From Botryllus schlosseri (Eukaryota): 64,000 nt of DNA. The translations under genes were made by a program, and so were the position numbers. The stretch lies in the NCBI GenBank assembly GCA_051294905.1, contig CM119372.1, positions 11,534,001-11,598,000 on the forward strand, written 5' to 3'. The notes under the pieces were generated by a model that saw nothing but the letters and a program-made list of their open reading frames with translations, was not told where the DNA came from and made no database searches. Shown here piece after piece: positions 222 to 39,800 of the stretch. Within the stretch, counting starts at the first letter, position 1; each line of letters starts with the position of its first letter.

Positions 222-225
222 ATTC

Positions 226-630
226 AGTAGACGTCGAGCGTGGAATGCCCGCTGGCGTAAATAAGGACCTGCACGAGAAAACTGGTCCTGAAAGCTCTCG
301 TGGATGCACTTGTCCGAATAACTGTAACAATTCGGCCCATAGCCTCCATGCGACAGCAACAGAAGACGTCGAGCGTGGAATGCCCGCTGGCGCAAAAGAG
401 GACCTGCACGAGAAAACTGGTCCTGAAAGCTCTCGTGGATGCACTTGTCCGAATAACTGTAACAATTCGGCCCATAGCTTGCATGCGACAGCAACAGTAG
501 ACGTCGAGCGTGGAATGCCCGCCGGCGTAAATAAGGACCTGCACGAGAAAACTGGTCCTGAATGCTCTCGTGGATGCACTTGTCCGAATAACTGTAATGA
601 TTCGGCCCATAGATGCATGACGACAGCCAC
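226..630 (+). repeat. Tandem repeat, 3 x 135 bp
   Basis: ACGTCGAGCG recurs at 231, 366 and 501; units are nearly identical with no spacers. Confidence 0.95.
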
Positions 631-4429: not shown

Positions 4430-7400
4430 TAACCTATAATCCCATTACGTGTCTTGCTAATCGGGAAAACCCAGCTTTTTGACCGTTACACCTATTTTAG
4501 CAGATCACCTTTGAAGCTTTATGGACAATAAAGACATGAAATATATTTTCCGCCTTTTAGAACTGGTATTTGTATTTCACTTTCAATTGCGAGTATCATA
4601 CTTCGAGTTCTAATTACTTTCAGTTCTTTTGTCCGCAGAATATACATGTTGAAGCATAAAAGCAAGTGTAGTAATGCCTCTATTTTCTGAAACTACAGCT
4701 ACACTAAATATAACTTTTACGATCCACAATATTTGTCATTAACGTATACTAATCGCGCAAAGTGATGAAACTGCCCGATACACACTTCTACGTATTGCTC
4801 GCCGCCTAAACTTGGGGCCTTGTAAAATGGGATAGGGCGCCATGCCATGATCTTCTCTGAAAACGGGGTCTTCTAGTAAAGAAAGTGTTAGTATCGCATT
4901 TTCATATCAATACTATAATTTGCATCCCATGATGCTGAACAATGCTTATTCTGTCGAAAATCATGCATGCATCAATACGAATGCATCAATACGAATCAAG
5001 CGTCAAAAATATCGATCTAGCCCCTAGCCATAAATCTAGCGATTTTCTAGCGATTTTTTTTCAGAAATATCGAGTAAAAATCAGTTTTTCGAAACAAACA
5101 TCATGCGCGTTTACCCATTTGACACATATCTTGCACGTCCGCACACATCGTCGATCTGTGTTCAGATTGCGTTCATGTATATGAACGTTTACTGGCATTT
5201 CTAATTTCTGGTCATGAGGGTGAAGTTAGCCATAACTTTTCCAGCCATAGGGTTCTAAAGTGTCATGTGCGGTAAACTGGTTAAGATGCTGAGTAACTGA
5301 AGCCCAACACTTTAATATCAAGCACGAACATTCTCCCTGAATGCAATGCTTTACACTAGGTTTTATACCTAAATTATAAACGCCCACACCGGACGAATAT
5401 AGGATCTACACCCTCCCCTAAAACCCGAATTCGCAAGCTTCTATAAGGGCAGCTGGATCCCAGACTGATAAATATTTTCTAACGGACTTTTGCGGGCAGA
5501 TGTCATACCTAATAAATGATACATGAGCTGGGTGGATGGGGAAGTAGTAAAATAATTGGCTGGTCAGCCGCTACAAGCAAAGTGGTCTGTAGGCTATATT
5601 GGCTATGGTTAGCGGGTTGGTCCTAGGAATATTTTCCTGATGTTGCTACCTATAGTGGCTGGCAAACCCGGTTCAAGTCGTGTTGCGTCGGGTCAAGTCG
5701 CATGTAGGGTTGGGACTTCGGGATCAAATTTGAAATCCCGGGATCGGGATTTCCCGGGATTTGCGCTTCTCAATCCCGGGATTTCCCGGGATTAACAAAG
5801 TAGTAAAATTCACATACAAGCTACACACACAACATTTATTCCTTGTAGTATTGACGCAGAAACATGCTCCCGTGAATACGTATGAAACCCAGCGACCGAA
5901 GGCCACCCGGATAATGAGCGTATAAATTCATGTAGCTCCCGCCTGTTTCGTGTAGAAATTGGTTCGTCAAACGTGATCCAAAAACGTCCAATGTTGCGTT
6001 TCATTGCCATAAGATCTTCTTCCACACACTTACGGATTTATTTGCTGTGCTCGATTACCAAGTCACGGACCCGTTTGTGACATCTTGACAAGTCATAGCC
6101 ATAAGCTTGAAGGCCCGACCAATTCACTCACTTTGGGTAATTGAATAAATGTTAACCCGTCCACATGCAGCAGTTAACTGGTTAAGAAGTTCATCGAGGC
6201 GAGGCTTATGCGATTTATTTTATAGGAATCGATCTTCCTCATTTTCATTTTTGGCTGATCTTTCTTTCACTTGTCCGATTGAATCATTCTTGGTTTAATT
6301 ACTATCATTTGTACAGACCTTAAATGCGTTATCAGTCCCTTTGTGCTAGACACTGAAGCTCTCAAAACGTCTTGACACAAGTTGCATTTGGCTTTTTATG
6401 TAGATTTATAAAACAAACAGTTTTGCCAAACATGTTATTTTCTCTTCGCATTGACATCTTCGAAATTCGCTATTATTCGACCTGTATTTCACCTCCACAG
6501 CATCGTCCTTGTGACTTTCCGATACTCAGTTACACTATAGATAACTAACCTACGGATAGATGGGCAACACGTGATTCACGGTCGAGAGCCCAGATGCCGT
6601 CAGATTTGTTGTCGCTTCATAGCATGAAGCGGCAGGTTATTGGCCAGATTGATGATTGGTGCAGATAGGATATAGGGCAATCACAACAGGTTATTTAGTG
6701 ATACAGTACACAGGCACTGGCGCGGCTATCATTGCATTAATATCAGGAGGATATTTCATGAGCAAAATAAGTCATGATATTCACTCTATTATTAATTGGT
6801 TTCAATATTGATTTCGGCTGAGATTTCCTTGAACTATTTTGGTTTGTATAATCATTAGTGCGGCCATGTTTTGATATGTCAAAATCGTAGTAGTACAAAA
6901 GTTGCCTATTTCTGAGCCAAAAACGTTTTTTGATGCTTAACTACTTCGTTAGGACAGCTATAGTTCCTACCAGAAATGAAGATCTAAGAAGTTGGCTACA
7001 ATTTTAACATTATGTGGTCAAAAAAAAAACGCCCTAATAATCAGAGATAGGTTTTAGTATGTATTGCTAAATAAAGACAATATGTTTTCATAATCCAGTC
7101 ATAATTGATATGGAATAATTATATTTCGAATTACTGACTGAGGATATCATGTGTGCGTAGGGCTTGGCACAATGATTCTCGAATCTTAACATAATATGAT
7201 TGCGGTGGAGGATACATCAACGAGTCACGACTGGAGCTATTTCACTTCAAAGTCAGCTGTCATAAAATAATCCAGTTTTTGGGCAACATAGTCTTCTTGC
7301 TTTGCATGTTGATACTGCCTAGCCATGCAAAGATTCCTCCTATGTAAAAAAGAGGTAAACCAACACTATGGCTGAAACCTTGACGTTGGTGTGTTGGCTT

Positions 7401-7688
7401 TTGTCCAATATCAGCTGGCAGTCCACTTCGCAATGGTGACATATCAAACTGACACATATATCCTCAGTATTTATTATTTTCAATATTTAATATTATATTA
7501 TGTATATTAGGCCTATTCAATCGACTTTCGCTTGGGTATTGGGGATGCATCGTAGGGCTTTGCCGATCTTTTCATTGCGTTTGATTGGGTGACATGATGG
7601 ATGTCGTACGCTAGCTGTGAAATATCCGGATTTGTCCGTCTTCTCCCCATTTGTCTCTGCAATCACAATCCCAGTCAATAATCTAACG

Positions 7689-7905
7689 CAGGGGTGGGCA
7701 AACTACGGCCCGCGGGCCGCATGCTGCCCGCAACACCGTTCTGTGCGGCCCGCGAGAGTCTAAATAAACTTTTTAAAAATATTGATACAATGCGTACTAA
7801 AAATAGAATTAATGCAGGGACTTGATCAACTTTTTCTTAGTGTATTTCACCTTGATAATTCTTAGACAGTGCATCTGAAGAGGCGCGCGCAGCTGAGCTC
7901 GACTG
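7689..7905. mobile_element. Truncated hAT-Charlie-type MITE end
   Basis: CAGGGGTGGGCAAACTACGGCCCGCGGGCC start; interrupts the left arm of the foldback; no second end. Confidence 0.7.
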
Positions 7906-8463
7906 AAAAATGCCTCTAGCACATCTTGCGTGAACGTTCCAAGGGCCAACTTGGGCATTTCTTCGATGAGACGATCGCATAGACCCACCATATTCCGTGA
8001 CGTGAAAATTAGGCCTTCCATTGTGGGTTTTGCCATCATTCGTTTTGGCTCACCACGACTTGGAAGCATATTTCTAAATTACATGATGACCCGAAAATAC
8101 CTCGAATAATAACTATGAGGAACTGACCTTCCAACTCAATAATCGATCCGCAAATTCACCCAGCCATGCAATTCTTTCATCGTCCAGGCTGCATATCGGA
8201 TAACTAATGCGGCATGTGCCGACATTGATTATTGAACCATCTGTTTTAGGTCATAAAATCAAGCCCCTTGTTATATAAGTGAAAATTCGTTACTCATACC
8301 TTTCCATCATCAGAACAAAATCAGATGTACCGGTTGCTCCCATCCCTTTCAAACAATTTCCAACTTTGTGACTCAATACACCCGTAGCCAAACTGACATT
8401 CATCTGGCATGAAAAACGGTCACATTTCAGCCCAGTGAATGATTGCAAGCGCATCATCTATAC

Positions 8464-8850
8464 CAGTGCTTCTCAACCTATTTCAGTTCGCATCCCACTT
8501 TCCATCTAAATTTCATTGCGTGGCCCACCACACACCCTTTCGCGACAAACGTTCAAACCACTACAGACAATAGAGCGAATAGCTGTGGGACTCATGCACT
8601 TTGGGACCAAAAACACATTTTCTCCATAAGGCTGTATTGAGTTTAGTCCGAAAGTGCACGAGCCCCGCAGGCCCGTCAATTACATGTTCCAGAATCATCA
8701 TCCAAAAGTGGAAGAAAACGTTGAAAATATTGACATTTTTCGACTTGGTCTTCGTGGTAGAGAACAGATCTACAAATTGGGATCTATCATCGTTTCTTAA
8801 AATGTCTTCGCGGCCCAAGTGGGCCGCAGCCAACCGGTTGAAAAGCACTG
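8464..8850. mobile_element. hAT-Charlie MITE in a P-transposase intron
   Basis: CAGTGCTTCTCAACC...GGTTGAAAAGCACTG; TSD ATCTATAC/ATCTCGAC. Confidence 0.85.
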
Positions 8851-9084
8851 ATCTCGACCAGAGGTGTCAAACATATTTTTTGCCTACTTTAGATCGTGGA
8901 TTTAAATTAACATGGGCCAATGTAAATCCGGACTGGTAAAGTGACAGGCTGCGCGACTCCACGACAAACAGTTTTTGGATATCCGTCCATAATAAACCTT
9001 GCCCTCTCCCATTCATGTTCATGTATCGAGATCCCTCTGCTTTCGATGAATAGAGAGTTCCGTGTGGCTGTTAGGATCCTAAGA

Positions 9085-9988
9085 ATATATCGGGTATGGA
9101 ATTTCGGGACTGTTTTCACATGGTAGGCCTACTAACATTTAATTTTCATAAGTCAAGTAATACCCAAAATTTTCGTTGCGCTTCGCGCGCAGTAGATACG
9201 GCGTGACAAATATGTTTAAACGAAAGTATCACAGTAAGTATACCCCCCCCCCCACCATAACATTTGATACTATCGTTTCGCAATCTAGCAGTAACATGAC
9301 GTGTCCAAATCCGGAAAAGTGAACCTTTACTTTTTTTAACGTTAGACTTAGACCTGTTCTAGCAGACCACCGTTGAAACTTTCTGGACAAACGACACATT
9401 ATATATTACCGCTTTTTTTGTATTTTTCTTCAAATTACGGGCATTATTGTCATTGTTTCAGTTATTGTGTAAACATTTTGAAAACATACGAACTGCCATA
9501 TTTTTAATTAACGTTTACTAATCGCGCAAAGTGTTGAAGCCGTATCCGACACAACTTGTCACCAATGCTCATTGACTAAACTAGGCGCCTTATAATATGG
9601 GGGAGGGCACCATGCCATGATATTCTCTAAAACGGGGTGTTCAAGTAAACAAAGAATTAGTAGCACATTCCATATCAATACTATCATTTACATCCCATGA
9701 TATGGACGACTGCCTATTCTGTCAAAAATTGACCCCGCCTGCGATGCATCAATATGAATCAAGCTCTTTACTCCTTCCTCATAGCTTTTGGCAGTCCATG
9801 CGAACGAATTACGATAGTTTTCAAAACTACTTACTTGAGTAGCTTTAAAGTCAGTCAATTCTAATTCTACTCCAAGTAGTTTTAGGTTGCTTATGGAAGA
9901 AGTACTTCTACTCATACTTGAGTAGATTTTTTCATCGCTACTTGTACTTCTACTTGAGTAGCTTTCTTGACTACTTTGACCACCTCTG
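9085..9988. mobile_element. Left-truncated family B element
   Basis: Homologous to about 3345-4429; ends TGACCACCTCTG. Confidence 0.8.
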
Positions 9989-10157
9989 GTAGTGCTCATC
10001 GTACTACAATATAATATGATCTAAAATTATCAGGTAAAGCTACCTTGAGGAGATGCTGAGGATCGGAGCATAGAAAAATTGGCCTTTCAGGAGCCTACGG
10101 ATTTGGATCAGTAAAGAGTCCATCTGATGGAATCTTCTTTGTCCCAGCAATAACCTG

Positions 10158-10477
10158 GGCCTAATTTTCACGTCACGGAATATGGTGGGTCTATGCGATC
10201 GTCTCATCGAAGAAATGCCCAAGTTGGCCCTTGGAACGTTCACGCAAGATGTGCTAGAGGCATTTTTTGGAAATTTAGTAAGATACTTAAACGTAATAAG
10301 GCGTTAGATTATTGACTGGGATTGTGATTGCAGAGACAAATGGGGAGAAGACGGACAAATCCGGATATTCCACAGCTAGCGTACGACATCCATCATGTCA
10401 CCCAATCAAAGGCAATGAAAAGATCGGCAAAGCCCTACGATGCATCCCCAATACCCAAGCGAAAGTCGATTGAATAA
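10158..10477 (+). pseudogene. Duplicated last 1.5 exons of the P transposase within the right arm
   Basis: GLIFTSRNMVGL..QDVLEAFFGNL, GT-AG intron 10278-10333, then RQMGRRRTNPDIPQ..SIE*. Confidence 0.88.
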
Positions 10478-11736
10478 TATATATAAGATAATATTAAATA
10501 TTGAAAATAATAAATACTGAGGATGTATGTGTCAGTTTGATATGTCACCATTGCGAAGTGGACTGCCAGCTAATATTGGACAAAAGCCAACACACCAACG
10601 TCAAGGTTTCAGCCATAGTGTTGGTTTACCTCTTTTTTACATAGGAGGAATCTTTGCATGGCTAGGCAGTATCAACATGCAAAGCAAGAAGACTATGTTG
10701 CCCAAAAACTGGATTATTTTATGACAGCTGACTTCGAAGTGAAATAGCTCCAGTTGTGACTCGTTGATGCATCCTCCACCGCAATCATATTATGTTCAGA
10801 TTCGAGAATCATTGTGCCAAGCCCTACGCACACATGATATCCTCAGTAATTCGAAATATAATTATTCCATATTAATTATGCATGGATTATGAAAACATAT
10901 TCTCTTTATTTAGCAATACATACTAAAACCTATCTCTGATTATTAGGGCGTTTTTTTGACCACATAATGTTAAAATTGTAGCTAACTTCTTATCTTCATT
11001 TCTGGTAGGAACTATAGCTGTCCTAACGAAGTAGTTTAGCATCGAAAAACGTTTTTGGCTCAGAAATAGGCAAGTTTTTACCACTACGATTTTGACAAAT
11101 TTTGACATGTCAAAAAATGGCCGCTCTAATGATTATACAAACCAAAATAGTTCAAGGAAATCTCAGCCGAAGTCAATATTGAAACCAATTAATAATAGAG
11201 TGAATATCATGACTTATTTTGCTCATGAAATATCCTCCTGATATTAATGCAATGATAGCCGCGCCAGTGCCTGTGTACTGTATCACTAAATAACCTGTTG
11301 TGATTGCCCTATATCCTATCTGCACCAAACATCAATCTGGCCAATAACCTGCCGCTTCATGCTATGAAGCGACAACAAATCTGACGGCATCTGGGCTCTC
11401 GACCGTGAATCACGTGTTGCCCATCTATCCGTAGGTTAGTTATCTATAGTTACACTGCTACGATTCGTAGACTACGACGGAAGTGATTGTGTAGTTCATT
11501 GTTATGACATAGTTGACTTTAATATCAAATAATTGTGAATTGTTTTAGACGATCAGCAGAGTTTGTGACAGTGCTTTATTACCAAAATAAGAGATATGGC
11601 GCTACGTAAGCCTTGGAAAATGTTGTTTACAAATCCCGGGATTTCATTGGGATCGGGATTTCCCGGGGTCCCAACGCTAGTCGCATGTCGTGTATACATT
11701 GCAGAAGTGCGTCAAGTCGCATGTCGTGTTCGAGTA

Positions 11737-16058: not shown

Positions 16059-16781
16059 CAGGGCCGGCCAACCTTTTCAGCCAAAGGGCCACATTCGATT
16101 GACGAACTGTTGCGCGGGCCACTAGCCGCGCGAAGCGCGAAAATTTTCTGAAGTTCGCAGGTCAATAATATTGTCACCTGACTATATTGCGGGCCTGTTG
16201 TATATCGCTGGGCTCAGTTTGCAAGGACTGGGCTATTGGCGTCTGGACATATCGATATCGAAAGTTTCGACCAACATGCGTCAATCATTTTGTGCCTAGG
16301 TTTCATAGTCGAAGGTCCTTCTGAGAGTGCAAACGCAAAGTCGCGTATGTTGAACGACACTCTGTCTCGTAATCGCGAATATAGTTAGATTAAATCTTAT
16401 ACATTAGGCGTTCTTTCATTTTCACAAAGGTGCAACAATATTAAAAGCAAGAAATCGAGTGACAACATGTTGCGCGAAGCGTGTAGAAAATTTTTACTTT
16501 TGATAAATCTATCGCAAATTATTCTGATTTATTGTAGTGTACGAAGATCTACCAATATGTGACTGGCTCATGGATCAGCCAATGCTTCGGAACTGATATT
16601 TTAGTCATCACATCTCAAGTGTTGCGGCCAGACTAATCAAATTTTTGATTGGCCTCACAAGTTCACAATCTGTGCAATCCATTTTTGATAACATTAGAAA
16701 TTTCGGAAATTACCTCGCGGGCCACTCAAAACCCTCTCGCGGGCCACATGTGGCCCGCGGGCCACGGGTTGGCCGGCCCTG
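16059..16781. mobile_element. hAT-Charlie MITE (CAGGGCCGGCCAACC TIR)
   Basis: Perfect TSD ATTTAGGG; inverted sibling at 38676-39581. Confidence 0.93.
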
Positions 16782-18640: not shown

Positions 18641-21600
18641 ATGTTGAGCGGGGATTTTGACTTGCCTGGACAACAAATACAATCATCAACTAACATAAAT
18701 GGACAAACAAGGTACCATACCGATAGCAATGTATATTTATATGCATATTTTCTGCTCAGTTTCAGTTCGAACAATTACGATCTTGAAAGATGAACGATTC
18801 TAAATTAAGGACTGACTTTTAAAAATTGCTGAAAAACTAATAATTCTCATTTCGAATTGTTAGGGTTGGACATTCGGAATTTTCAGCGCCGATGTCAGAG
18901 AGTCAACGTTACAGGACCTTTGAAAACTTCCCGAACAAAGATATCATCTTAAAGTTATACAATTCTGGCTTTTATTATACTGATGTGGAAGACAACACTA
19001 TTTGCCACAGGTTTGTTTGGTGCCTGAGAACTTAACAACGATGTATACTGTATCATTTGTTTGGAAATTACCACTACAGGGATCTGAGATAGTCCTACTG
19101 ATTTAGTGTCTGACTCATCAGTCGCCTGACTGACTCAGTTACATGCTGATATGTGTTCTGAACCGGAGTCAGTTCATTGAATTGCAAGTCTGTGTTGCTG
19201 TTTTATTACCAGACCATTTGATTACCATGCAGATGCAGCGTCAGCATATCGACGTGGCAAGATGATGATGATCCAGGAATGTTTCATGAAATCGGTTGTC
19301 CTTACAACACTGGGGCAGTAAAATCAAAAATTTTACCAGTACCATCCATTATTGATGAACCAATCGAGGACACTGAAGGAACAGTAAGTTATCACAAAGT
19401 ATTAAATATGTGATCTGATTAATTGTGTTGCCCGTTTGCAGGCTCCACTCGTGCCAACCATACTGGAACCGGCGCAAAGTGAGTGCAAAGTGCTTCTTAA
19501 CTTGTTACTTGATAATCACAGATCTATATCCGGAATTTTAGGTGCGGAGTCTGCCGGCATGGCTTCCGCTAATCGCGTGAGTAAGAGTTCTTTCTGCTGT
19601 ATGCTTCAGCCATGTTTGAGGCCGAGTTCTGTTCAATGTGGTACATAATTCGGAGTTGATATGATGAACAGTGAACACTTCAAACAACGAGCAACACTGT
19701 TATCTTTCTGGTGTGAGGGCATCGGAGTCAAAGCCTGGTGTTTGAACGTTTATTTCACTAGTGGGTCGGAACCAAAGCTGTGAATCTTGATTTGAAGTAA
19801 TCCCAATTTTATTGATAGGAGTCGTGAAGGGCAGGGAAAAATTGAGTACCTGACTGATTCGATTTTAAGTTGATTATCAAGCCTTGCAACAGCTGTGACT
19901 GAAGTCCCATAAAGATTTTGCAAGATTGTGCAATGTACACGTACAGCCCGTGATGTCGGCAGAAGTGGATTTTGTGCTGGTCTGAAGCTTTCAGAGTTGA
20001 TATGATTGAAATTGTTGGTATGAGAATTCTTTCCATTTGAATGGAGCCTTATATTATGCTGGGAGTTCTGTCAAATGATAAATCGTTTTGAGTAATTTGC
20101 ATGTACTTTTTTCCTCCAGCCTTACGCAGTGGATTCGCGATTCCCGTTTGGCCCGATATACGTGCAGAGTCACGCCGCTATGATGAAAGCTATCAACCCA
20201 CGCAAGGAGGAAGATCGTAGGTTAGCTTCATGACAAACAGGATAATATTGCAGCTCTTTGGAAATTACTACCGTGTTGTCCTGATCTGTAGATACACATT
20301 CACCTTCAACGACGCTTGGAAGCGGAACACCAACGATGTTTTGCCGTACAAAGAGCTTGCCGCAAATGGATTTTTCTATTTGGGCAATCTGAAGCGGACG
20401 CAATGCTTTTCTTGTCTTGAAGTCATCGGACATTGGTATCGTAGCGACGTGAAATGCATCCATAAGATTCACGGGGAAAACTCGGAACATTGCAGGTTCG
20501 TCGAAAAATCCACTCTTGTCGTGTTCATTTCTTGTCACTGGTGCCAGTAAAAATTGGGCTTTTGCCATGATGTATCATCTCAGTGCATAACAGAACTGGT
20601 TTCATAGAACTGGTTAGGACTTTGGTTTTAGTGAGAGACGAGGAAATGTGACCACGAGTGTTGGTAGCATGCTCCGTTAGGCTGTATGAGTTTGGACCAA
20701 GGTTGTAGAGTCCGGAGTTTCGTTGGATTTTCTATTGATGGATTCTGGAGTGGGAGTCACAGAAACCTTTGAACACCAGTTAGAATCGGGGTTTGTGGAA
20801 ACACCTTGTGGCTGGATTCCGGGGTAGCTAAAACGCTCCGATTCCAATTTCAACTACCTTAAAATCGAACCAAATATTCTAAAATGTTACTAAAAAGTGC
20901 AGTTGCAATTATGGTAGTTCGAGTCGTGTAGGTGTTTCACGTGTGCAAACTTTCACAGCTTAATTTCTTTCTGCGAGCACATTTTTTTAAATTCGGAAAA
21001 TAGATGAAAATAACCCGATAATTGATAATAAGTAAAATGCAATAAACGTTCCTCAGTAGATTTAAAGGGATGTCGGAGTTTTGTGAAGAAAATATTAAGG
21101 GTCGGTGTGTTTCAAGTTCCCAGAGTAGGTATATTGATAATGTCTGGAGTCTGTGGTAAAGTGAACCGACTCCACAGCACTGGTTCGTATGCTTACTCTT
21201 ACTGCGACTACCAAACATGAAATTTCGTGCAGAATGGCACGAGGTCAAGACCCAACGAACGTGCCATCTCGAATTCACCATTCTTCCGATAACGACGTCG
21301 GAACGTCGTCATCACAGCATCGTACTCTCGACAACTCGAATTTATTGCCGAGAACATTGCTGACTCCGGCTCGAACTGATTTCGACTTGACCAACACGCC
21401 GCACGAACACAATTCCATACAATTGTCAGTAAATTCTGTCGAAGTATCAACGAGCGCCTCAGAAAAGGAGCAAGAACAGGACGATCGTCGACTGTTTTCA
21501 AACTCATCTGCGGGCTCGCTACAAATATCGCCGTATCCCGGCGCTGGTCCTGAAACAAACTACTTGCCGCACACGGCCCGCGGGCGACTTGCTAGCTCCG

Positions 21601-24600
21601 GCGAAAAGCTACCGGTTCAGGTTGCTGATGAGTCATCTGAGCCACACTACTCGTTTGAAAATACTGCGCCGTCGCGCAGTAGCTCGCAATATGTTGGACC
21701 AGCGCGTCCGTATCAAGGGGAGGAGGACAGACCGCAAAGCGCTACTGTAATACGTCAAGACACGGAGGAAGGCGTCCGGCACATGGAAACGGAGATTGTG
21801 GAGTCTCCGTTTCAGTGCGATGCGCCCCAATACCCTGAGATGCGTGATATAGACGCTAGACGGGAGAGTTTCGCAGCCTGGTGGACGAACAGTGATGTCT
21901 CGAACACGGAGGATATGGCACATGCCGGTTTCTATTGTTTCGGTGAGTTTTGGGCAGAGGCATTCAAAGTCTGTGCTCATCGTATATTTCTGCTCCAGTA
22001 CAAGTAGAAGTAGTGATTTCCGAGTAAGAACAAAAGGTAGTAGGTGTTCCAGGTATACTTTTGGCTAAATTATGGAAAGCAGTGAAATAGATTGCTATTC
22101 AAGTACAAGTGCAAGATGTAGAGATTTCCATAAGTATTCTAGGCCTAGTTTTGCCTTAAGCACTGAAAACTGAAGTACTCAAGTACGAGTGCAGGTAGTG
22201 GTTTCTGATTATGATCCGCTTGAAGAAGTAATAGCAAGCACTTCAAAGTACTTTTAACCAACCAACTCCGGTTTTTGGCTGCGATTTTTCCACACCTTGA
22301 AACTTCCTCAAGACTCTTATCACATTTTCAGATTGCAATAGCACAAAGTGCTGGTACTGCGGAGCCGTCAAACGCGGATGGCGGCCCGGCGACGACCCGT
22401 GGGAAGTTCACGCCGAGCTGTTTCCACAGTGCGTGCCCGGATCGCGTTACGGTTCCTGCGCGTTTCGAGTTCATGCTTTTTATTGTTTCGACAGCTGCGA
22501 ATATCTACTGAGCAAGAAAGGCGTCGAATTTGTCGAGGACGTCCGCAGCAGAATGCCGCCGTCGCCGCCGGTTTCGTTCTTACCGCCGGCTACGCCTTCA
22601 CCACCCCACTCGCCTATCTACAGAGTCCCTTCTCCGAACATGTCGTTTGGATCGTTTGACGAATCGCCGTATTCGTCTCTGGAGACTTACGGGGTAAGGG
22701 TTAGCGCTCGATTTGCGTGCCATTTGCTGTCGCGGTTGTTTCGAATTTACGACCGCAGTGCCGCGAGTGTCCGTGTCTGTGCGTGGTCGGAAAGCAGATG
22801 CGTCGTCCAATGTAGCCAGCTAGGTGCATTTGCCAGTGAAGGCAGGCGTTCGAAGTACACAAGACAATATATCACATTGTTACCTTATCACTAAAAGCTT
22901 GTCGATTGACTCTCATCAGCCAAGTTGGCCGGCCCAAGAAACCATCGTTAGTACTCAGAAGGAGTAACGGTAAACTCCACTCAAGTAGAAGTAGCTGTTC
23001 CCAAGTACGTAAAAAGTAAGTATTCTAGAACTAGTTTGCCTAGATAACTGAAACAGTAAAAATCGAGTCCACTTGCTTCAAAAACTAGAAGTAATTTGAA
23101 TAGTAAAACCATGCAAGTCAACGGTAAAGTAGGGAAAAGGCAATACGAGTCGCGTGTCAGTAAAGTTGTTTGAGTACTCCGTTACGGACCATCTCTGTCG
23201 CATATCTCCCAGTACCATGGCGGAGCTGCTCAGCCAGTGGCGGTTATCGACCCACGGGAAGTTATGGAGAAAAGGAAAAGATTACTGGAATCCTCCCTCG
23301 ACTCTGAGTTGACTATGGCGGCTATGGAAATGGGCTTCGAACTGCCGATGATAAAAAGGTCAGTGTCTAAGAGCGTCACGGTACTGAAAGATCTATCGTG
23401 ATGATCCGTCTCGACCGCAGGGTCCTGAAGAGTAAGATACGGCGTACGGACATCACCTATCCCAATCCCACAGCTTTACTGGACGATTTGCTGAACCCGC
23501 CAGCGGATTTGGACCCTGACTCGGACGACGAGGACGGCGATCCTGTCGGGTATGTATACTATGAATGAGTGAATTGTCAGCAGCCGAAGTAGTTCGATGC
23601 GCAAACTTTATTGCACTTTCAGAAACGTAGCGGGTGCTTCTGCGGCGTCCGAAGTCGAGACGCAGGTAAGTCGCTAATTTCCCGGTCGTCGACGTGTGTT
23701 GCTAGTTGTGGTAAGCGTGCGCTTGCAAGATACATGTGATTTCGGATTGTAGTGTCGCGCAACGTATTGAAATGCTGGAAAAACTCACAAGCAAGGAGGC
23801 AATGGCTCAAATGTTGTGATTCGTGGCGGAAATACCCTTTCGCATGCTGAACACACCTCGGTTTAAGCATTAGTGTGTTTGCTGTTCAATGTGCTCGTTA
23901 CGGCTGCTCAAAAAAACTTTTGGTTCTGATTTCACTGGCTATGTGATAAAATTGTTAGGCTGGCTAAAACAACGCTGCTCACCAAATTTAACTCCATTCC
24001 AACCAGTAGAAGCGAGGTTCTTGCAGTTGAAAGTTTTAAATTTACTATTTACTGGCGTTCACTGCTGAAGAGAGCCAGTCGAAAGCTTCCAGTGGAATAA
24101 ATTTAACAATATGAACGTATTGTTTGCTGCAATAAATTTACTATATAAAAAAAATTCAAATTTTCTGCCGACCACATAAAATTGTTAGGCTGTCAGTAGA
24201 GACGATGCTCACAAAATTTGGCTCAATTCCAACCAGTAGAAGCGAAGTTACTGCAGTAGAAAAATTTCTAATTCCATGATTTTATAATGAATAATTAAAA
24301 AGTTAGCCACCGTAAATACTATTTTACTCGAATCCAAATTGTTCTACTGTAATAAGTTCGCTTCTACGGGTTGCAATTGAGCCAAATTTAGTTTGCATCG
24401 TCTCTACCAACAGCCTGACAATTTTATGGGGTCGGCAGAAAATTTGAATTTCTTTCATTTATTTTTTAGATAATAAATTCAATACTTTCTACTGCAAGAG
24501 CCTCGCTTGTAATGGTTGGAATTGAGCCAAATTTGGTGTGCAGGGTTGTTTTAGCCAACCCAACAATTTTATCACGTAGCCTGTGAAATCTGAAGAAGTT

Positions 24601-25100
24601 TATTTTGAACAGCCCTAGTGTTCATACTACTGCAAAGTCACCGAAATGTGACTGGTGCGGATTGAAATTCAGGTCGAAGGGAAACTTTTTAAATACTGTT
24701 ATGAAGCCCCGGCTCGATTATGACTGCGTGAAACAACAATGGCATGAGATCTCGTGACATTTTAGAGGGTAAAAGGCGCTTTTCGCATGAGGCTTCCGTT
24801 TATAGCCCTGTCGTCGGTCAGCCCTGGGTTGGAGATTCTATGCCTTTTGTGTTGCAGGCAAGCGGACAGAACGCGCCGAGAATGGACATCGAACTGCCGT
24901 CTGACCCGCAAGAGATGACGGAAAAGTTGCGGGAAATCGAGAATGAAAAACGCTGCAAAGTCTGTCTCGATCGCGACGCGGTCGTTCTGTTCATTCCGTG
25001 CAAACATCTTTGCACGTGCGTTGACTGTGCTCAGGCGTTGAGAACTTGTCCGTTGTGTCGGAAGCGGATTCAAAAGTCCATGAAAACGTATTCTACTTGA
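18641..25100 (+). CDS. IAP: Inhibitor of apoptosis protein (3 BIR + UBA + C-terminal RING; XIAP/DIAP2-like architecture), 14 coding exons, about 770 aa
   Basis: Phase-consistent GT-AG exons: 18641-18711, 18864-19010, 19233-19383, 19442-19478, 19542-19576, 20120-20220, 20292-20495, 21233-21942, 22332-22428, 22495-22693, 23213-23358, 23421-23549, 23623-23665, 24858-25100 (2313 nt incl. stop). BIR1 RYRTF..SGFYY..CHRC-x16-H; BIR2 EEDRRYTF..LAANGFFY..CFSC..HGENSEHC; BIR3 RRESF..MAHAGFY..CWYC-x16-H-x6-C; UBA AMEMGF..LLDDLL; RING CKVCLD..FIPCKHLCTCVDCA..CPLCR..TYST*. The start exon and small linker exons are the least certain. Confidence 0.93.
22862..22925 (-). ncRNA. Degenerate minimal hammerhead ribozyme motif (GAAA changed to GACA)
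   Basis: Reverse strand CTGATGA-G-AGTCAAT-C-GACA-AGCT-TT-TAGTGATAAGGTAACAATGTGA, homologous to the 24058 and 36838 copies. Confidence 0.6.
23899..24617. mobile_element. Foldback-like hAT MITE in IAP intron 13, arms built of tandem subrepeats
   Basis: TACGGCTGCTCAAAA...TTTTGAACAGCCCTA; nearly the whole element is an inverted repeat; TSD GTGCTCGT/GTGTTCAT. Confidence 0.82.
24049..24132 (+). ncRNA. 84-bp insertion carrying a minimal type I hammerhead motif (likely Penelope-like pLTR end)
   Basis: TTCACTG-CTGAAGA-G-AGCCAGT-C-GAAA-GCT-TC-CAGTGGA followed by AATAAA; 12-bp direct repeat TAAATTTACTAT (24037-24048, 24133-24144); absent from the mirror arm of the host MITE. Confidence 0.75.
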
Positions 25101-25178
25101 TATGACGATTCGTACCTACTCGAAGGGCTACTTGTTGGTGTTCGCCGCGCATTGCAGCGGCGCGGAAATGTCTGAAAT

Positions 25179-25215
25179 TATAGATAACTAACCTACGGTA
25201 GGTTAGTTATATAAA
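25179..25215. mobile_element. 37-bp remnant of two P-element tips (probable excision footprint)
   Basis: TATAGATAACTAACCTAC-G-GTAGGTTAGTTATATAAA matches the first and last 18 bp of 6536-11448 (two mismatches on the right); flanks CTGAAAT/GTGAAAT. Confidence 0.85.
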
Positions 25216-25556
25216 GTGAAATCAAATATGCTGCGAACGATATGCAACTTCACCTCTATATTTTATCCTCAAAATTTTTTACGCTCATTACTTATGTTAG
25301 ATCACGGTAAACTGGTTCATATGATGGGTGTGGTTGGATTTCCTCAGTAGTGCGTTCAATTCACAGTATGAGGTCGATAGGGACGGGGTGGGTTCGAGTT
25401 CAATGCAGGTGTCATGAATGACAGGTCTATGTAACAAAATTTTAGTAGGAAGGTTCGCCGAAACCTGAATTATATCCGGTGCGGAAAGGCAAGAAATTGA
25501 GATTGGGGAGAATGTAAGTTTCGTGACGTCGCGTGAAGTAACCAACCAATATGACG

Positions 25557-26521
25557 CAGTGTTGGGATGACTCGAGTCATGACTTGACTCGAGTCAGACT
25601 CGAGTCACCTTTTCCGTATGACTTGACTTGACTCGAGTCACTTTGCTAAAATGACTTGACTTGACTCGGCGTATCAGAAATGTGGATTGACTCGTGACTC
25701 GGAGCAAAATTCACGAGTCAATTTCAAGTCATCAATTATTAATCGGTGTCGATAAAAATCACTTTATCTTGCATATGTTCGGATTGTTCGCGAAACGCTG
25801 ATGCAAGCCGTGAGAGGACTTATAATTCAATGATGGTACGTTTTACTGATCCTCCATTGTTCTCTCACAAATAAATTTACCGCAAACGAACTGATCGAAG
25901 CTTACAGCTTACGCTATCGATAACAAATATAGTAAAGTAATTTACAGCAAAATGTCTATTTCTGTTCTATGTTCTTATCTAACAAAACCTCTTGCTTTAT
26001 AGAAATTGAATTCGAATATAGTTTATATAGTCGATCCTCAACCTTTGGCGCAGGCTCGAATTGTATCATATCAATTTTTAAATGGGGATAATGTATTGCA
26101 TCTTATCAATTCCTTTCTCTATTCTCTATTTTGGCTGGTAACTGTGAACTGAGACTATGCAATTACTTACGTAGTTAGCAGTTCTTCGTATATGTTAGCG
26201 ATGCAGCGCCTTCTTCCGTGTGTATTTATCTCTATATTCGTTCATAGCTTCAAAATCAATGACCACTCAATCTGTATTTCAGACAGCTAGCAAACTGCAA
26301 TGACGTAATCATGCCTCATACTTAGAAAAGGCTACTTGACTTGAATTGTGACTTGACTCGTGACTTGACTTGACTTGACTCGACTTGACTCGAGTCACCT
26401 CCAAAAATCGAGTGACTTGACTTGACTCGAGTCACCTTCGAAAATCGATTGACTTGACTTGACTCGAGTCAAAATGTGCAATGACTCGTGACTCGAAGGT
26501 AGTGACTTGATCCCAACACTG
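25557..26521. mobile_element. hAT MITE family C (CAGTGTTGGGAT TIR, GACTT/GACTC subrepeats)
   Basis: Perfect TSD ATATGACG. Confidence 0.93.
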
Positions 26522-26676
26522 ATATGACGTCGTATACATGAGGCATCGAGGGCGACAACACAGTGAGATCAAAACGAAAAGTCACTAAAGATTGTAGTTA
26601 CGATTTCATCCTTCATTTCAAATTCCTTGCTTTGGGTTAGCTTCACTACGCGTGGAGTATGGTGAAGATATGAGGA

Positions 26677-33800: not shown

Positions 33801-36800
33801 CCCACAGTTTGAGAACCGCTGGCCTAGACCGTTCAGGGGTAAGCTTAAATTCCCTTGCAAGTCCTCGTCAAAATTGTTGGCAAAGCGACGGAATATTTTG
33901 ATTTTACGGGATTATTATACCGTTTGATTGCCCCAGTTGATAGATTTGCCGACGTTGAAAACGTCAATTTGTGCTTCAGCATAATAGTGACCCGAGTCGT
34001 CGCTGTATAGGCTATCGTGTACACTGTACAGTAATATAGGCCATCACTTCAATGTAGGGTTGAAATTACCATAATGACGTCTCGTGACGTCATGAGGTTC
34101 ACGTTCACGTTCACACAGAACCTCTGAGAGGTTCACACCATCACTAGTACCCAGTATTAGTGATCTTCGGAGCCCAGTAACAACATTGCACCACTGCATC
34201 CAAATATAAAAAAATCGAGTTACTGTGGGGAGATAAAGGCTCATGATTTTGACCTAGCCCGATTTTGGACCAACACGTTGCTGAGGTAAAAGTCAGTTCA
34301 AGCGTGAAAAGCGCGACATTTAACAAAAACTTTCGGGAATCACTATAATCTTTCACGATCTTGGTTTTCTGTTGCACTTCTTGTCTCAGCATCACCTCGA
34401 TGTAGCGAGTGTTGGGAAGTTTGAATTCAGGAAATTTTAACCAATATTCAGATTTCGGAGAAATTCTGATATTTCTCCAAAAACGTTCACATGGTAGGAC
34501 CTACACAGTACACATTCGGCTATACGGCATTTCATTCTCAATATCAAGTTGTTAGTCGTGTTTCAGCACAAGAGGATTTTTTAACGGTAAGACCCACAGG
34601 AATAGACTACTTCAATCTTCCATTGCGATCCCATCATGTTTCTTGACAAAACGATCGATCAGACCGCTTATGATTTCGTCTTGTTCGTTACATGTCTTTA
34701 TAGATTTATATATACATTCTCACAGTAATGAGAGAATTCGATATGGTAAATCAATAGTATATTGACCTATTTTGAAGTCAGCATGCTCAGCTATGTATCA
34801 TTCAATACATTAGTTGTTGCTGCTAAAACTGCTACGGACTCCAAAATGTCACAAAACGAGAGGAATTCTGACACAAGGATAAAGTTACCTTTCTCGTATT
34901 CGGTGATCCAAAACCTGCGTCTAAAAGTTGTAATAAAATCCACTTAGATAGGTGTGTAATCGTAACCAATGTTTCAAACTGCGTTTATTCGCAATTTCAT
35001 GTTTCATTGCATGTGAATAAAGATACAGCTGAATACTCGATGCAAGAAACGACCACACTTCAAATATGAGGCTATAGAAATCACACAATCATCGGTAGTT
35101 TACGGCATCAAATGACTACATTACATATATTTTATAAATTTTGAACAACACAGCGTAGGCCTTCATAGGTCCGCGTATAATCACTAGTAAGTCATGCTAT
35201 CAGGCCAGGATCTTCTGGAAATGAGAATATGGTAGAGGTAAAATTGAGTTGGCCATATTGTAATGATAACCTTTATAGCCGCCAGGTCTCTTATTTATTC
35301 CAGTAGTCAGATGTACTCGCAATTTTATGCAACATCACATTATCAACAAATCTATGCGAATATTACCGGAAATTCCCTCTTCGTGGCCACATTTCGCAAT
35401 TGGCACATCCGAAGATCCAGTAAGTCCGTGTTCGGCGCCTGATAGCTTGTCCGTCATACTTATGGCTGTGAATAAAAAATATGACGGGCTATTGCAAAGT
35501 ACACTAACCGGTGATTTAATTTTAAAGTAGGTGGCAGATGGCCAATAAACACGTCATGCTTCATTCCTACCTTCTCCCAGTCTCAGCACCTTCAATTCTT
35601 GCAACACTTTATAATCATGGTGAACTTCACCTGTGAAGATGCAGCAAGTGCCCTCGTGATACATTGATTAACAATGGTTGCAATAGCCTACGAGTTACTT
35701 TCCAAATCAACACTTAATTGTCGAAAATTAACATGCTGTGACAATTACATTATGCCTGCGACATGATCAGGGCATGGTAGGGTATGGTATGGAACGACAA
35801 TTTTCCATGCTCCATACTTGCCTTACTCTCTCAATACCATATAATTGCAATTTTCCATACCATACCAACATTGTTCCATACCATACTTGATACATATTCC
35901 ATACTTTCAAATACTTCAATATCATAAGTATAGTACCTTCTCTAGCACCTATATTATTGATATTTCGGATGTCATTTTTGCTTAAACTAGCCATGATGCG
36001 AATCTAATTCCTGGTGATAGTTTTACAGAGTCTGTTTTGGTGAGGTGCCGTGTACGTCTACTCTGCAGATTCCGCGAGCAAAATGAGATAGTCAGCAGAT
36101 TGCTATATTGGACAGTCCATAAAAGGGACGGGTAACATACGGCCCGCGACGAGATTTTGTCCGGCTCGCGGACAGTTTCCCGTCTTGCTTGATAATGTGG
36201 CCCGCGGTCCCAGTCTGCCGAGATTCCCCACTATTTGCCTAAACGTCCAATTTTAGTGACTGTATTATATAGGTGTGCGCACTGTGCAGCGTGCGAGAGT
36301 GGAGCTTACGCGTAAGTTCGTCGAAGCGAGAAGACTTTCATTATCGGCATTTACGATGTACTCAACCCCAATGAATTGAAATCTTGGTAAATTTTGGGTA
36401 CTGGGCTTATCAAACGCTTTAAAATCCTAATTAAGGATTGCACCGTGGTTTAGTTGATCAAAGAGAAGCAGACACGGCGGCGCTTGTATGACAATGCTGT
36501 TCTCAAATCCACATTGTATTGTCATTATCGGCGAGAAATGGCTCTGAAGTGACATATTTCTGTCGATAAGATACATTCATTAAATGACGCGAAACAATAA
36601 CTTCATATTGTTAATTTATTCGCTAAAAGCTTTTCGACAGACCCTCATCAGTAGCGAAACGTCAGTGATAGGGTGAATCAAATTCGAAAATGTAAGAACT
36701 ATTTTGTCTGTATGACGTAATAATAACAAAAACAAACAACTAGTAGACGGACTAGTTGTTTGTTTTTTGTTATTATTACGTCATACAGACAAAATAGTTC

Positions 36801-39800
36801 TTACATTTTCGAATTTGATTCACCCTATCACTGACGTTTCGCTACTGATGAGGGTCAGTCGAAAAGCTTTCAGCGAATAAATTAACAATATGAAGTTATT
36901 GTTTCGCGTTATTCTGAAGTTCTGTACCACAAATCACTTAATCATTAAATACGATTTATTCCTTGTATATATGCGCGAATAATGTATCCATTCAGCAATC
37001 CGGCCCGCCAAGTACTTAATTTTTCTATATCCGGCACTCTGACCGGAGAAGTTGCCCGCCCCTGCTCCATAAGAATATCATCACATTTCCGGTACATTGG
37101 CATGAGGCGCATGCAAGTTTGAAGTAAATACTCGCAAAATAATTTATAACATAGGCGCACCCATAAAATGTCCCAGCTACAGGCGATCAATACTGCAGCG
37201 ATCTGCGTGATTATAAGTACAGTATTTGGTTGAGGTTAGCGTGGCGAGAATTTCAAACTATATCTACCCCACTCCCTGATCTATAATCCTGATGTGAGAT
37301 CGTTTGAAATATGACCAATAAGATATCTCGCTATGTAAATAGTATAAATGTGCGGACAATATTTCAGAAGAAATGTAATTATCAATCACATTGAGCAATT
37401 AGTACGTTGCATCATGATTGCTTGTAAGCGGTCGTCACTCAAGGAATGAGGTAATTGGAGTAGCCCACATTACCAATTATTGCGTCACACGATAGACTTT
37501 GCTCGGAGACGTCGTGTCTAGACTCAATAGAATATCTGATCAACATTACTGTTGTCATGATTACGTCACAAAATCATGTCATTCCAAGTGCCCCTAAAAC
37601 TGTTGCACAAACGTGTATTTGTTCCTACACAGCATTAAATAGTTCGCGTTCACAGTTCACACATAACAAAAGCGATCGTATTCCGTGAACAGCGATCAAC
37701 GTACGGTTCATGAAGCTTGCACAGATCACAATAAAATGTATAAAACACCTAAGTATGGAAGTATTGAAATGTCGTTCCATACCATAGATTAAAATCTCCC
37801 GTTCCATACCATACTTGCATTGCTCCATATTCCATACCAAAATATCGATCCACACCATACCATACTTCCATACCATACCATACCATGCCCTGGACATGAT
37901 CCATGGATCGCAATGACAAGCTCACTAAATTTAATTAACTGACCTTCCGTCGGCGACAATTGAGATTTTCCTTCGGATTTTCGTGAGAAGCTGGCCATTC
38001 CAAACTGAAAAAGTCGCGTTCGTTAGATAGATTGCGAACTACCGGTATATCGCTCAAGCATTCCCATTAGATCTCTTCGGTAGATCACGAGAACATTACA
38101 GCAGACCACGCAGTCAGGTTAATCATAGGCTCTTAGAGGGCAAATAGGCGAAACGACGATATCGACATTAATAATGGCCAAGATTAGGGCGAAGTACATC
38201 CCAAACTAACAGCACAAATGTGTGATAATTCGAAATGAGCTACGTGCTGACCTTCCAAGTCAGCAGATGCGAAAGTGTCGACTAATCGAATAATTTAAAG
38301 GTGGGACGGGAATGTTGACCTTTTCAGTCGGCAGGGTTGTAGGTCACGGTGACATCTGCTTCCAAAAGGTAGTTAGCAATACGCCAATATTGAGCACCTC
38401 TGAACAATTATTGCCGAAGGAGCATGATGAGCGAGTAAAATGTAATTTAAACGAAATGAAGAATCAGATGAAACAATGCTAGCGGTAGCCTACTCTATAG
38501 TACAGTGGTCGGGAACCTTTTGTCCGAAGAGCCATATTGACCCCATATTTTCCATCTTAACTTCCAAAGAGCCATACGTTTTAATCAATACGTCACAATA
38601 TAAAAATTGTGACGTCATCGTAGCGCAAATTCGTCGATTTTCGTCAGTTATACGAGATCGTAGGTTCGTCTTGACCAGGGCCGGCCAACCCGTGGCCCGC
38701 GAGAAGGTTTTGAGTGGCCCGCGAGATAATTTCCGAAATTTCTAATGTTATCAAAAATGGATTGCACAGATTATGAACTTGTGAGGCCAACCGAAATTTG
38801 GTTTAGTCTGGCCGCAACACTTGATATGTTATGACTAAAATATCAGTTCCGACGCATTGGCAGATCCATGAGTCAGTCACATATTGATAGATCTTCGTAT
38901 ACTACAATAAACAGAATGGTGGGCGATAGATTTATCAAAAGTAAACATTTTCTACACGCTTCGCGCAACATGTTGTCACTCGATTTCTTGATTTTAATAT
39001 TGTTGCCCCTTTGTGAAAATCTAAGAACTCCTAATGTATCAGATTGAATCTAAATATAATCGCGATTACGAGACAGAGTGTCGTTTAACATATGCGGCTT
39101 TGCGTTTGCACTCGCAGAAAGACTGTCGACTATGAAACCTAGGCACAAAATGATTGACGCATGTTGGTCGAAACTTTTGATATCGAAATGTCCAGACGCC
39201 GATAGCCCAGTCCTTGCAAACTGAGCCCAGCGATATACAGCAGGCCCGCAATCAATGTTCCCTCTAATTTTTGCCGAGTCTGCGCACACTCACCAATACA
39301 CTGCGCAGACCCTTGGACAACAGTGCGTAACGGTGGAAAAAAAGATCATCACTTCGGATTTTTTGTGCGCAACTTCGATTTTCTGTGCGCAGAGACTGTG
39401 CCAGCACTGCGCATTTGCGCACGTGCGCAGCTTAGAGGGAACATTGCCCAAAATATAGTCAGGTGAAAATATTATTGACCTGTGAACTAGGAAAAATATT
39501 CGCGCCTCGCGCGGCTAGTGGCCCGCGCAACAGTTCGACAATCGAATGTGGCCCTTTGGCTGAAAAGGTTGGCCAGCCCTGGTCTTGACGATATGACCTT
39601 ACCTGTCTACTAGATTTTGAACATTTTTACTACGAAAATCACGCAACTTACCTATTTATTGTTCGAAAATATAGCATGAAAGGGGAGGTAAGGCATTGGT
39701 GAGGCACAGCCGGGATTAGCATAGCGCAATTCATCGTAAATATCACAGAATTTATAATATTGATAACACTGGTTTTCACATAGTTTTTGGCATGCAAAGT

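What the first reader, a model, noticed from the sequence alone, without database searches (positions are those of the whole stretch)
25172..25222. Probable P-type excision footprint (18+1+18 bp) just after the IAP stop codon
Seen: a 37-bp palindrome made of exactly the outer ~18 bp of each end of the 6536-11448 element, between 7-bp near-direct repeats CTGAAAT/GTGAAAT, starting 78 bp after the IAP stop. Known: Drosophila P transposase makes a 17-nt staggered cut and end-joining leaves roughly that much of each TIR at the donor site. Inference: this family uses the same long-overhang cleavage, and the footprint independently fixes the terminus and 7-bp TSD. It would form a hairpin in the presumed 3' UTR, where no canonical AATAAA is nearby (the mutated right tip reads TATAAA).
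Basis: partly seen in the sequence, partly recalled or inferred. Interest (0 to 1): 0.75.

Follow-up and report, generated by a model that had tools for sequence, protein, structure and literature searches.

The report
P-transposon excision scar in IAP transcript
A 37-base mirror-image sequence in the untranslated tail of an apoptosis-inhibitor gene is most likely the scar left when a P-type jumping gene cut itself out, and its length suggests that this enzyme cuts about 20 bases inside its ends rather than the 17 known from the fruit fly.

Summary
The 37-bp palindrome (25179-25215) is real: both tips of the 6536-11448 element between 7-bp near-repeats. That element carries P-transposase exons running into its arm (Ciona P transposase, E 1.5e-8), so the family is P superfamily; flanks of other copies read RT-NNN-AY, like 1360's GTTNAAC. 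The same unit sits at dozens of other loci, mostly 37 bp, with rarer length variants and one tip-templated insertion. Identical scars also recur after fly P excision, so this does not refute a scar. A 17-nt tail needs three extra bases to give 37 bp; two 20-nt tails give it without trimming. Best reading: end-joined excision scar of a P clade with a longer stagger (18-21 nt, likeliest 20; inferred, not measured). No empty or full allele appeared in four runs. It lies in the spliced IAP 3' UTR; poly(A) is at 25321, 106 nt beyond TATAAA, and SNPs break the stem, so it looks like a passenger. The scan noted two-gene P elements and another scar type elsewhere in this genome, not this scar.

The parts
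25172..25178 (.). left copy of the 7-bp target-site duplication (first base differs from the right copy)
25179..25198 (.). left retained transposon tip: 20 nt identical to the end of the 6536-11448 element; 25197 is the unpaired centre of the palindrome
25198..25215 (.). right retained tip: 18 nt, 2 mismatches to the element; the A at 25211 is shared with 16-17 contigs of other loci, the A at 25214 is private
   Evidence: table 3
25216..25222 (.). right copy of the target-site duplication, GTGAAAT, fits RT-NNN-AY
   Evidence: table 7
24858..25321 (+). last exon of the IAP gene: RING domain, stop 25098-25100, 221-nt 3' UTR holding the scar, poly(A) added at 25321; spliced from an exon ending at 23665
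   Evidence: (6 spliced reads in X23; 4 poly(A) reads in X21), 76
20221..22891 (+). upstream IAP exons with BIR domains (context)
   Evidence: PF00653 E 1.1e-12 and 1e-7
6536..11448 (.). non-autonomous member of the parent P family: two 3' ends in inverted orientation (arms of about 1.15 kb, 96% alike) with nested inserts
6529..6535 (.). left TSD GTTACAC of the parent-family copy
11449..11455 (.). right TSD GTTACAC of the parent-family copy
7528..10157 (-). broken P-transposase exons in order along the minus strand: 10157-10017, 9088-8885, 8442-8128, 8057-7905, 7656-7528 (Ciona residues 178-465), GTP-binding domain and C-terminal RNase H part
10158..10477 (+). inverted duplicate of the last two transposase exons, with a 56-bp GT-AG intron (10278-10333) and a stop at 10475-10477, 971 bp from the tip; the last exon lies inside the long arm

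Best explanation
A P-superfamily transposon of the family seen at 6536-11448 once inserted into the IAP 3' UTR, duplicating a 7-bp RT-NNN-AY target. Its transposase later excised it, cutting one strand at the element's edge and the other strand about 20 nt inside, so the donor site kept a single-stranded 3' tail of terminal repeat on each side. End joining aligned the last three bases of the two tails (two G:C pairs around one G-G mismatch, both 3' ends paired) and filled in, giving 20+20-3 = 37 bp between the two target copies. The same route made the same unit at many other loci. SHOWN: the sequence, the P transposase in the family, the 7-bp target motif, many loci, a dominant 37-bp length among forms that align, the place in the mRNA. 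INFERRED: that this site once held a full element, the cut geometry, the repair path. Tail length: 18-21 nt fit, 20 fits best. The hairpin is probably a neutral passenger in the UTR.
For: Family is P: tblastn of Ciona P transposase P0004 (PF12017, PF21788, PF21789) maps residues 178-465 onto the element (best E 2.4e-25), and the last exon lies inside the arm that ends in the same tip. Target motif: loose-end consensus at other loci ends GTTTAAC / GTCTAAC on the left and starts GT-A/T-TAAC on the right in two DNA runs, against 1360 GTTNAAC with 7-bp TSD (PMC3276498 Table 4) and Galileo GTANTAC (PMC4168063). Architecture equals fly P donor-site junctions: TSD, tail, short microhomology or insertion, tail, TSD (PMC2895639 Table 1). 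Recurrence: 51 of 98 laid contigs in X1 and 56 of 109 in X7 fit only partly and carry diverse flanks; 4 of the 6 listed X1 contigs from other loci are ungapped over the unit, one is 3 nt longer, one 1 nt shorter; no indel inside the unit reaches 8% of depth. One X1 contig holds a 31-nt insert built of repeats of tip positions 2-10, 3-10 and 1-10, like the templated inserts of fly P junctions. Tail length: 37 bp needs 3 untemplated bases with 17-nt tails, 1 with 18, none with 19 or more; among tails of 17-23 nt only 20 gives 37 bp with both 3' ends paired. The junction has 1 nt of microhomology while registers of 4-6 nt lie deeper in the arm (70, 79, 96 bp remnants), so the end points look cut-defined.
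Against: No empty and no full allele at this site in 4 of 4 runs laid, so the history of the site is not seen. No genome was held, so arm lengths could not be tabulated; the lay favours forms near 37 bp and would miss 32-bp or much longer remnants. In flies a trimmed join (30 bp, 14 of 66) beat the untrimmed one (32 bp, 5 of 66), which weakens the no-trimming argument for exactly 20 nt. The tip aligns with the fly 17-nt tail at 10 of 17 positions in register (p 0.007-0.025), which would put a homologous cut at 17. A tip variant is shared by 16 (X1) and 17 (X7) contigs, as a mobile subfamily would also give. Zebrafish THAP9 left larger flanking deletions rather than tidy scars in fly cells (PMC10983969 passages).
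Confidence: 0.7

Rival explanations
1. Same excision scar, but the enzyme cuts 17 nt inside as in Drosophila; the extra 1-3 bases were copied from the sister chromatid in a very short, aborted gap repair before end joining.
For: The tip aligns with the fly tail in register for 17 nt (10 of 17); fly P breaks are often repaired by partial synthesis followed by end joining (PMC2895639 passage).
Against: The three extra bases are exactly the next three of the repeat at many loci, and 37 bp dominates among aligned forms; aborted synthesis should give varied lengths (inference). No loose end continuing into the arm at 25198 is among the 6 rows shown per DNA run (34 rows in all not shown).
Confidence: 0.15
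2. The 37-bp unit is itself a mobile micro-element that the family's transposase inserts at new RT-NNN-AY targets.
For: High summed contig depth over the unit (246 and 646 times the locus depth; not a copy number), dozens of flanks, one dominant length, and tip variants shared among loci (25211A with 25214T in 16-17 contigs; 25208A in 3+3 contigs).
Against: A P-type cut 17-20 nt inside each end would leave at most 3 paired bases of a 37-bp substrate (geometry from PMC7776569; inference); P ends need internal transposase binding sites (same review); the shortest P-derived MITE named in the Anopheles passages read is 205 bp; recurrent identical scars are normal for P breaks; shared variants can come from parent subfamilies.
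Confidence: 0.07
3. Transposase-independent collapse of a long inverted repeat (hairpin slippage or 'nearly precise excision' as recalled for Tn10) that deleted the interior.
For: The family forms kilobase inverted arms, which are unstable in general (established knowledge).
Against: Slippage uses the best microhomology; the 37-bp register has 1 nt, whereas 6 nt (70-bp remnant), 5 nt (79) and 4 nt (96) are available. The end points fall at P-tail length.
Confidence: 0.05

Closest known systems
Drosophila P element donor-site junctions after excision (P{wa} assay, Chan, Yu and McVey 2010, PMC2895639; 17-nt stagger, PMC7776569)
   Same: Both TSD copies kept, nearly whole terminal tails kept on both sides, short microhomology or templated insertion at the join, recurrent identical products.
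   Different: 37 bp instead of 30-32 bp, so a longer tail; 7-bp instead of 8-bp TSD; natural, apparently fixed germline scars at many loci rather than laboratory events.
1360/hoppel and Galileo (P superfamily, Drosophila)
   Same: 7-bp TSD with palindromic GT-N3-AC target (1360 GTTNAAC, Galileo GTANTAC); long arms extended by non-TIR sequence as in Galileo.
   Different: Ends read TA...TA; the transposase has introns (Galileo and 1360 have none) and stops just after the catalytic domain. No excision geometry for these families turned up in my searches.
Ciona intestinalis P transposase LOC108949295 (P0004) and the two-gene P elements noted by this scan in the same genome
   Same: 63% identity over the catalytic stretch; both proteins end about 60-70 residues after the last catalytic motif, without the usual C-terminal domain.
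   Different: A separate C-terminal-domain gene was not shown in this copy; I did not compare the ends of those elements with this tip.
MITEs derived from P elements (Anopheles P-MITEs, BuT5)
   Same: Non-coding, many copies, ends and TSD of a P family.
   Different: Those are 200 bp to over 1 kb and keep subterminal sequence; this unit has only the tips.

Membership tests
P superfamily (parent element) | P-type transposase: RNase H domain with GTP-binding insertion domain | tested here: met
   PF21788, E 0.056, weak alone; E 1.5e-8 to P0004
P superfamily (parent element) | Terminal inverted repeats joined to that transposase gene | tested here: met
   last exon inside the arm, stop 971 bp from the tip
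P superfamily (parent element) | 7- or 8-bp TSD with palindromic target motif | tested here: met
   2 of 2 window loci with 7-bp repeats; RT-NNN-AY flanks in 2 of 2 DNA runs; compare
P superfamily (parent element) | [quoted passage not shown] | tested here: inconclusive
   the 5' part of this copy is replaced by a duplicate of the 3' end; no THAP hit in 62 of 62 frames scanned
P superfamily (parent element) | GTP-dependent cleavage with a long stagger | not testable with these tools
   needs biochemistry; the scar is indirect evidence only
Drosophila P element family (narrow sense) | 8-bp TSD, ends with 3'-terminal G, C-terminal domain in the same protein | tested here: not met
   7-bp TSD, 3'-terminal A, reading frame stops after the catalytic domain; not filed here
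Drosophila P element family (narrow sense) | 17-nt stagger | tested here: inconclusive
   37 bp needs 3 extra templated bases under 17 nt; shorter classes were not visible to the lay
P-type excision footprint | Both TSD copies and both terminal tails kept, nothing internal | tested here: met
P-type excision footprint | End-joining signature: short microhomology, length variants, templated inserts | tested here: met
   1-nt microhomology here; 2 of 6 listed contigs differ in length; 1 contig with tip-templated insert
P-type excision footprint | Full-element or empty allele at the same site | tested here: inconclusive
   none in 4 of 4 runs laid, out of 24 listed
MITE (mobile as a unit) | Many similar copies with their own TSDs | tested here: met
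   also expected of recurrent scars
MITE (mobile as a unit) | Subterminal sequence sufficient for transposase binding and end pairing | tested here: not met
   only 18-20 nt of each tip; not filed here

The most novel reading that the evidence does not exclude
The 37-bp palindrome is not only a scar but is itself inserted as a unit at new 7-bp targets by the family's transposase (or tails left at a donor site are re-used as substrate), which would make it a mobile element far smaller than the P-derived MITEs in the papers read and at odds with P cutting geometry. A milder and likelier novelty, part of the best explanation, is that P transposases lacking the fused C-terminal domain cut about 20 nt inside (probability about 0.45, interest about 0.6).
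Probability: 0.07. Interest if true: 0.8.

Novelty: new variant of a known kind. Interest (0 to 1): 0.5.

Why it matters
[quoted passage not shown] A genome that keeps many uniform scars records the cut position of a distant, 7-bp-TSD, TA-ended P clade without an assay. If the tail is 20 nt, stagger length varies within the superfamily, and since the fly's single strand wraps over the C-terminal domain, which this transposase lacks, there is a direct structural question to test. The scar can also classify non-coding elements as P-type. For the IAP gene itself the finding is ordinary: a passenger hairpin in a 3' UTR.

Tried and rejected
Pattern scans: 6 metagenome matches were unrelated palindromes, with different arms and no match to the element; viral contigs 0; prokaryote genomes 0. 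Rfam: no match at E 1 in 25050-25400. Look-ups of earlier findings by sequence found nothing, nor near the place. The 55-aa GTP-domain fragment alone found no true relative: 2 spurious repeat proteins, 0 of 19 candidates, no Atlas hit; read through with X it had no Pfam hit; the catalytic fragment had no Pfam hit and only spurious PDB hits. A candidate start of a separate C-terminal-domain gene at 6656-6808 gave no Pfam or Atlas hit: not claimed. A 7-bp hAT group (hATw, recalled; Repbase notes hAT families with 7-bp TSD) was dropped once the P transposase was found. A 5-bp TSD with C...G ends was dropped because at least 16 of 33 (X1) and 18 of 32 (X7) listed left-flank contigs align through the T at 25178, so that base varies; contigs with T are favoured by the aligner, so the share is inflated. 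TATAAA as poly(A) signal: rejected (one poly(A) end, 106 nt away; only 4 reads, so minor sites are not excluded). Selected RNA hairpin: the stem folds well (z -4.6), as any palindrome does, but the SNPs at 25189 and 25211 do not keep pairing. The run search listed no indexed RNA holder on record; this was not used as evidence. Kimbacher 2009 on Ciona P elements was not held, so its TIRs and TSDs could not be compared; supplements were not read for any paper.

Full report
OBSERVATION. The sequence is as described. 25179-25215 is a 37-bp palindrome with one unpaired centre base, between CTGAAAT and GTGAAAT, 78 bases after the IAP stop at 25098-25100. The left arm is identical to the end of the 6536-11448 element for 20 nt; the right arm matches for 18 nt with mismatches at 25211 and 25214. 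The tip occurs four times in the window: twice on the element, twice here. A 20-mer match is expected 2.5e-7 times by chance, 6 of 7 flank identity has p=0.0016, and of 10 short palindromes in the window only this one has a flanking direct repeat. The gene is an IAP: BIR and RING domains.

THE PARENT FAMILY IS P SUPERFAMILY. Of 62 reading frames of 38 aa or more inside the element, one gave a weak hit to the P-transposase GTP-binding domain (PF21788, E 0.056; four other weak hits were unrelated families). The frame 7903-8078(-) then found 2 proteins among 16 candidates, one a Ciona intestinalis protein with three P-transposase domains (E 1.5e-8, 63% identity). With it, tblastn lays residues 178-465 in order along the minus strand from 10157 to 7528, and again, inverted, at 10158-10462. 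The last two exons are split by a 56-bp GT-AG intron; the last exon lies inside the long arm and stops 971 bp from the tip. So the element is two 3' ends of a P transposon facing each other, flanked by GTTACAC on both sides, and the tip in the scar is a P end. Like the Ciona protein, this frame stops soon after the catalytic domain. Earlier notes of this scan describe two-gene P elements with that truncation in the same genome (AI notes, not checked beyond this resemblance).

OTHER LOCI AND OTHER INDIVIDUALS. One lay of 24620-25560 on 4 of 24 listed runs (two sets of DNA contigs, X1 and X7; single-cell RNA reads, X21; bulk RNA reads, X23). Summed contig depth over the palindrome is 22,921 (X1) and 41,221 (X7) against 93 and 64 on the unique flanks. 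This is not a copy number, because overlapping contigs add up, but bin arithmetic shows that the high depth runs to about 25208, ten bases past the point where a full element stops matching, so these contigs carry the junction. 51 of 98 contigs laid in X1 and 56 of 109 in X7 fit only partly; the loose-end rows shown (6 per run; 34 rows in all hidden) count 33 left and 23 right flanks in X1, 32 and 28 in X7, with low agreement (0.44-0.6), that is, different loci: at least about 25 per run, probably more. Their consensus next to the unit is GTTTAAC or GTCTAAC on the left and GT-A/T-TAAC on the right, with C or T next to the tip: a palindromic RT-NNN-AY target in a 7-bp register. 1360 has a 7-bp TSD and GTTNAAC (PMC3276498, passages and Tables 2-4 seen); Galileo has 7 bp and GTANTAC (PMC4168063, abstract and passages). 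Of 6 X1 contigs from other loci among the 16 pieces listed (194 not shown), 4 are ungapped, one has 3 extra bases and one lacks 1; no indel inside the unit reaches 8% of depth. One X1 contig holds a 31-nt insert made of copies of tip positions 2-10, 3-10 and 1-10, and 6 reads in X23 show a near repeat of the right arm. 16 contigs in X1 and 17 in X7 have T at 25214 without a listed C at 25211, so a second tip variant exists and the window's right tip is one change away from it; this is read from the absence of a table row and depends on how the tool aligns. At the IAP site itself every haplotype seen keeps the unit (X1 one sequence, X7 two, X21 two); no deletion, joint or run into the arm is listed.

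PLACE IN THE mRNA. Six X23 reads join an exon ending at 23665 to 24858. X21 reads lie on the plus strand, peak at 25132-25195 (depth about 150), cross the palindrome and fall away by 25323; the one poly(A) loose end is at 25321 (4 reads), followed in the genome by a GU-rich stretch. The scar is therefore in a 221-nt 3' UTR. TATAAA lies 106 nt upstream of that end, too far for a usual signal (established knowledge). Two SNPs on one haplotype (25189, 25211) do not keep pairing. I read the hairpin as a passenger.

MECHANISM. Drosophila P transposase cuts the 3' end at the edge and the other strand 17 bp inside (PMC7776569, passages and section 6 seen), leaving 17-nt 3' tails at the donor site. 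Table 1 of PMC2895639 (passages and Tables 1-3 seen) lists 66 joins: 14 share one 30-bp product, 5 share a 32-bp product, 18 carry insertions, several copied from the tail, and 20 lost nearly all of the tails through long microhomology. The unit here has the same build, and recurrence of identical products is thus expected of scars. What differs is length. With 17-nt tails a 37-mer needs three further bases that happen to be the next three of the repeat; with 18 it needs one; from 19 none. Listing how two identical tails can anneal, only a 20-nt tail gives 37 bp with both 3' bases paired (two G:C pairs around a G-G mismatch), while 19 predicts 36 and 17 predicts 32. The 36-bp form stays under 8% of depth. 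Against leaning too hard on this: flies preferred a trimmed join, a 32-bp class would probably not have aligned, and the tip resembles the fly tail in register up to position 17 (10 of 17; p 0.007-0.025). I put a scar with tails of 18-21 nt at 0.7 (20 likeliest), a 17-nt cut with short copying at 0.15, a mobile micro-element at 0.07 and slippage at 0.05; slippage should have used the 4-6-nt microhomologies deeper in the arm.

COMPARISON AND NOVELTY. It works like a fly P donor-site scar and comes from a member of the P superfamily; it is not a member of the Drosophila P family (7-bp TSD, 3'-terminal A where the fly G contacts GTP, no fused C-terminal domain). Ten literature searches (listings seen) showed no report of natural genome-wide P-type scars, or of a cut position for a P-superfamily enzyme other than the fly's; the library lacks most subscription papers, including the Ciona P paper, and Beall and Rio 1997 is cited only through the review. 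Other papers seen as passages: PMC10983969, PMC4455052, PMC3698922, PMC1562414, PMC12448946 (no bearing found). The host is an animal, probably an ascidian by the Ciona hit and earlier notes; I did not establish the species.

VERDICT. New variant of a known kind; interest 0.5, resting on the inferred longer stagger and on the scars as a fossil assay, not on the IAP gene.

Noticed in passing
window 6536-11448: The element is two 3' ends of a P transposon in inverted orientation (junction at 10157/10158) with matching 7-bp TSD; either it moved with two 3' ends or gap repair copied the 3' end onto the 5' side. Ends read TA...TA, unlike fly P.
   Followed up: partly
window 6656-6808 (+) and mirror 11176-11331 (-): A short frame facing the transposase could be the start of a separate C-terminal-domain gene as in the two-gene P elements noted elsewhere in this genome; no Pfam or Atlas hit.
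   Followed up: partly
window 25306-25311: GGTAAA 10 nt before the poly(A) site; 6 of 8 X23 reads have A at 25306, giving AGTAAA, a recalled variant poly(A) signal. A few X21 reads run on to about 25450, hinting at a minor longer UTR.
   Followed up: no
window 16059-16757 and 38682-39581: Two about 92% alike copies in inverted orientation, 22 kb apart, enclose the IAP gene; probably two separate MITE copies, TSDs not checked.
   Followed up: no
window 23899-24617: Palindromic MITE-like insert with internal repeats in the last IAP intron; its sequence also resembles the near-perfect 150-bp-arm foldback at 36583-36913.
   Followed up: no
window 25556-26525 and several other places: Abundant repeat family rich in a short palindromic GACTCGAGTC motif begins 235 bp after the poly(A) site and holds the nearest AATAAA (25870).
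   Followed up: no
window 63484-63822 (-): Frame with a PLxIKLGLMK-like motif that I recall from DNA transposases; no Pfam hit.
   Followed up: no
window 225-629: Three tandem 135-bp copies (91-96% alike) inside open frames, followed by fragmented frames to 2061; no Pfam hit.
   Followed up: no
window 25414-25458: X7 haplotypes differ by a 10-bp insertion and a 24-bp deletion just downstream of the UTR.
   Followed up: no
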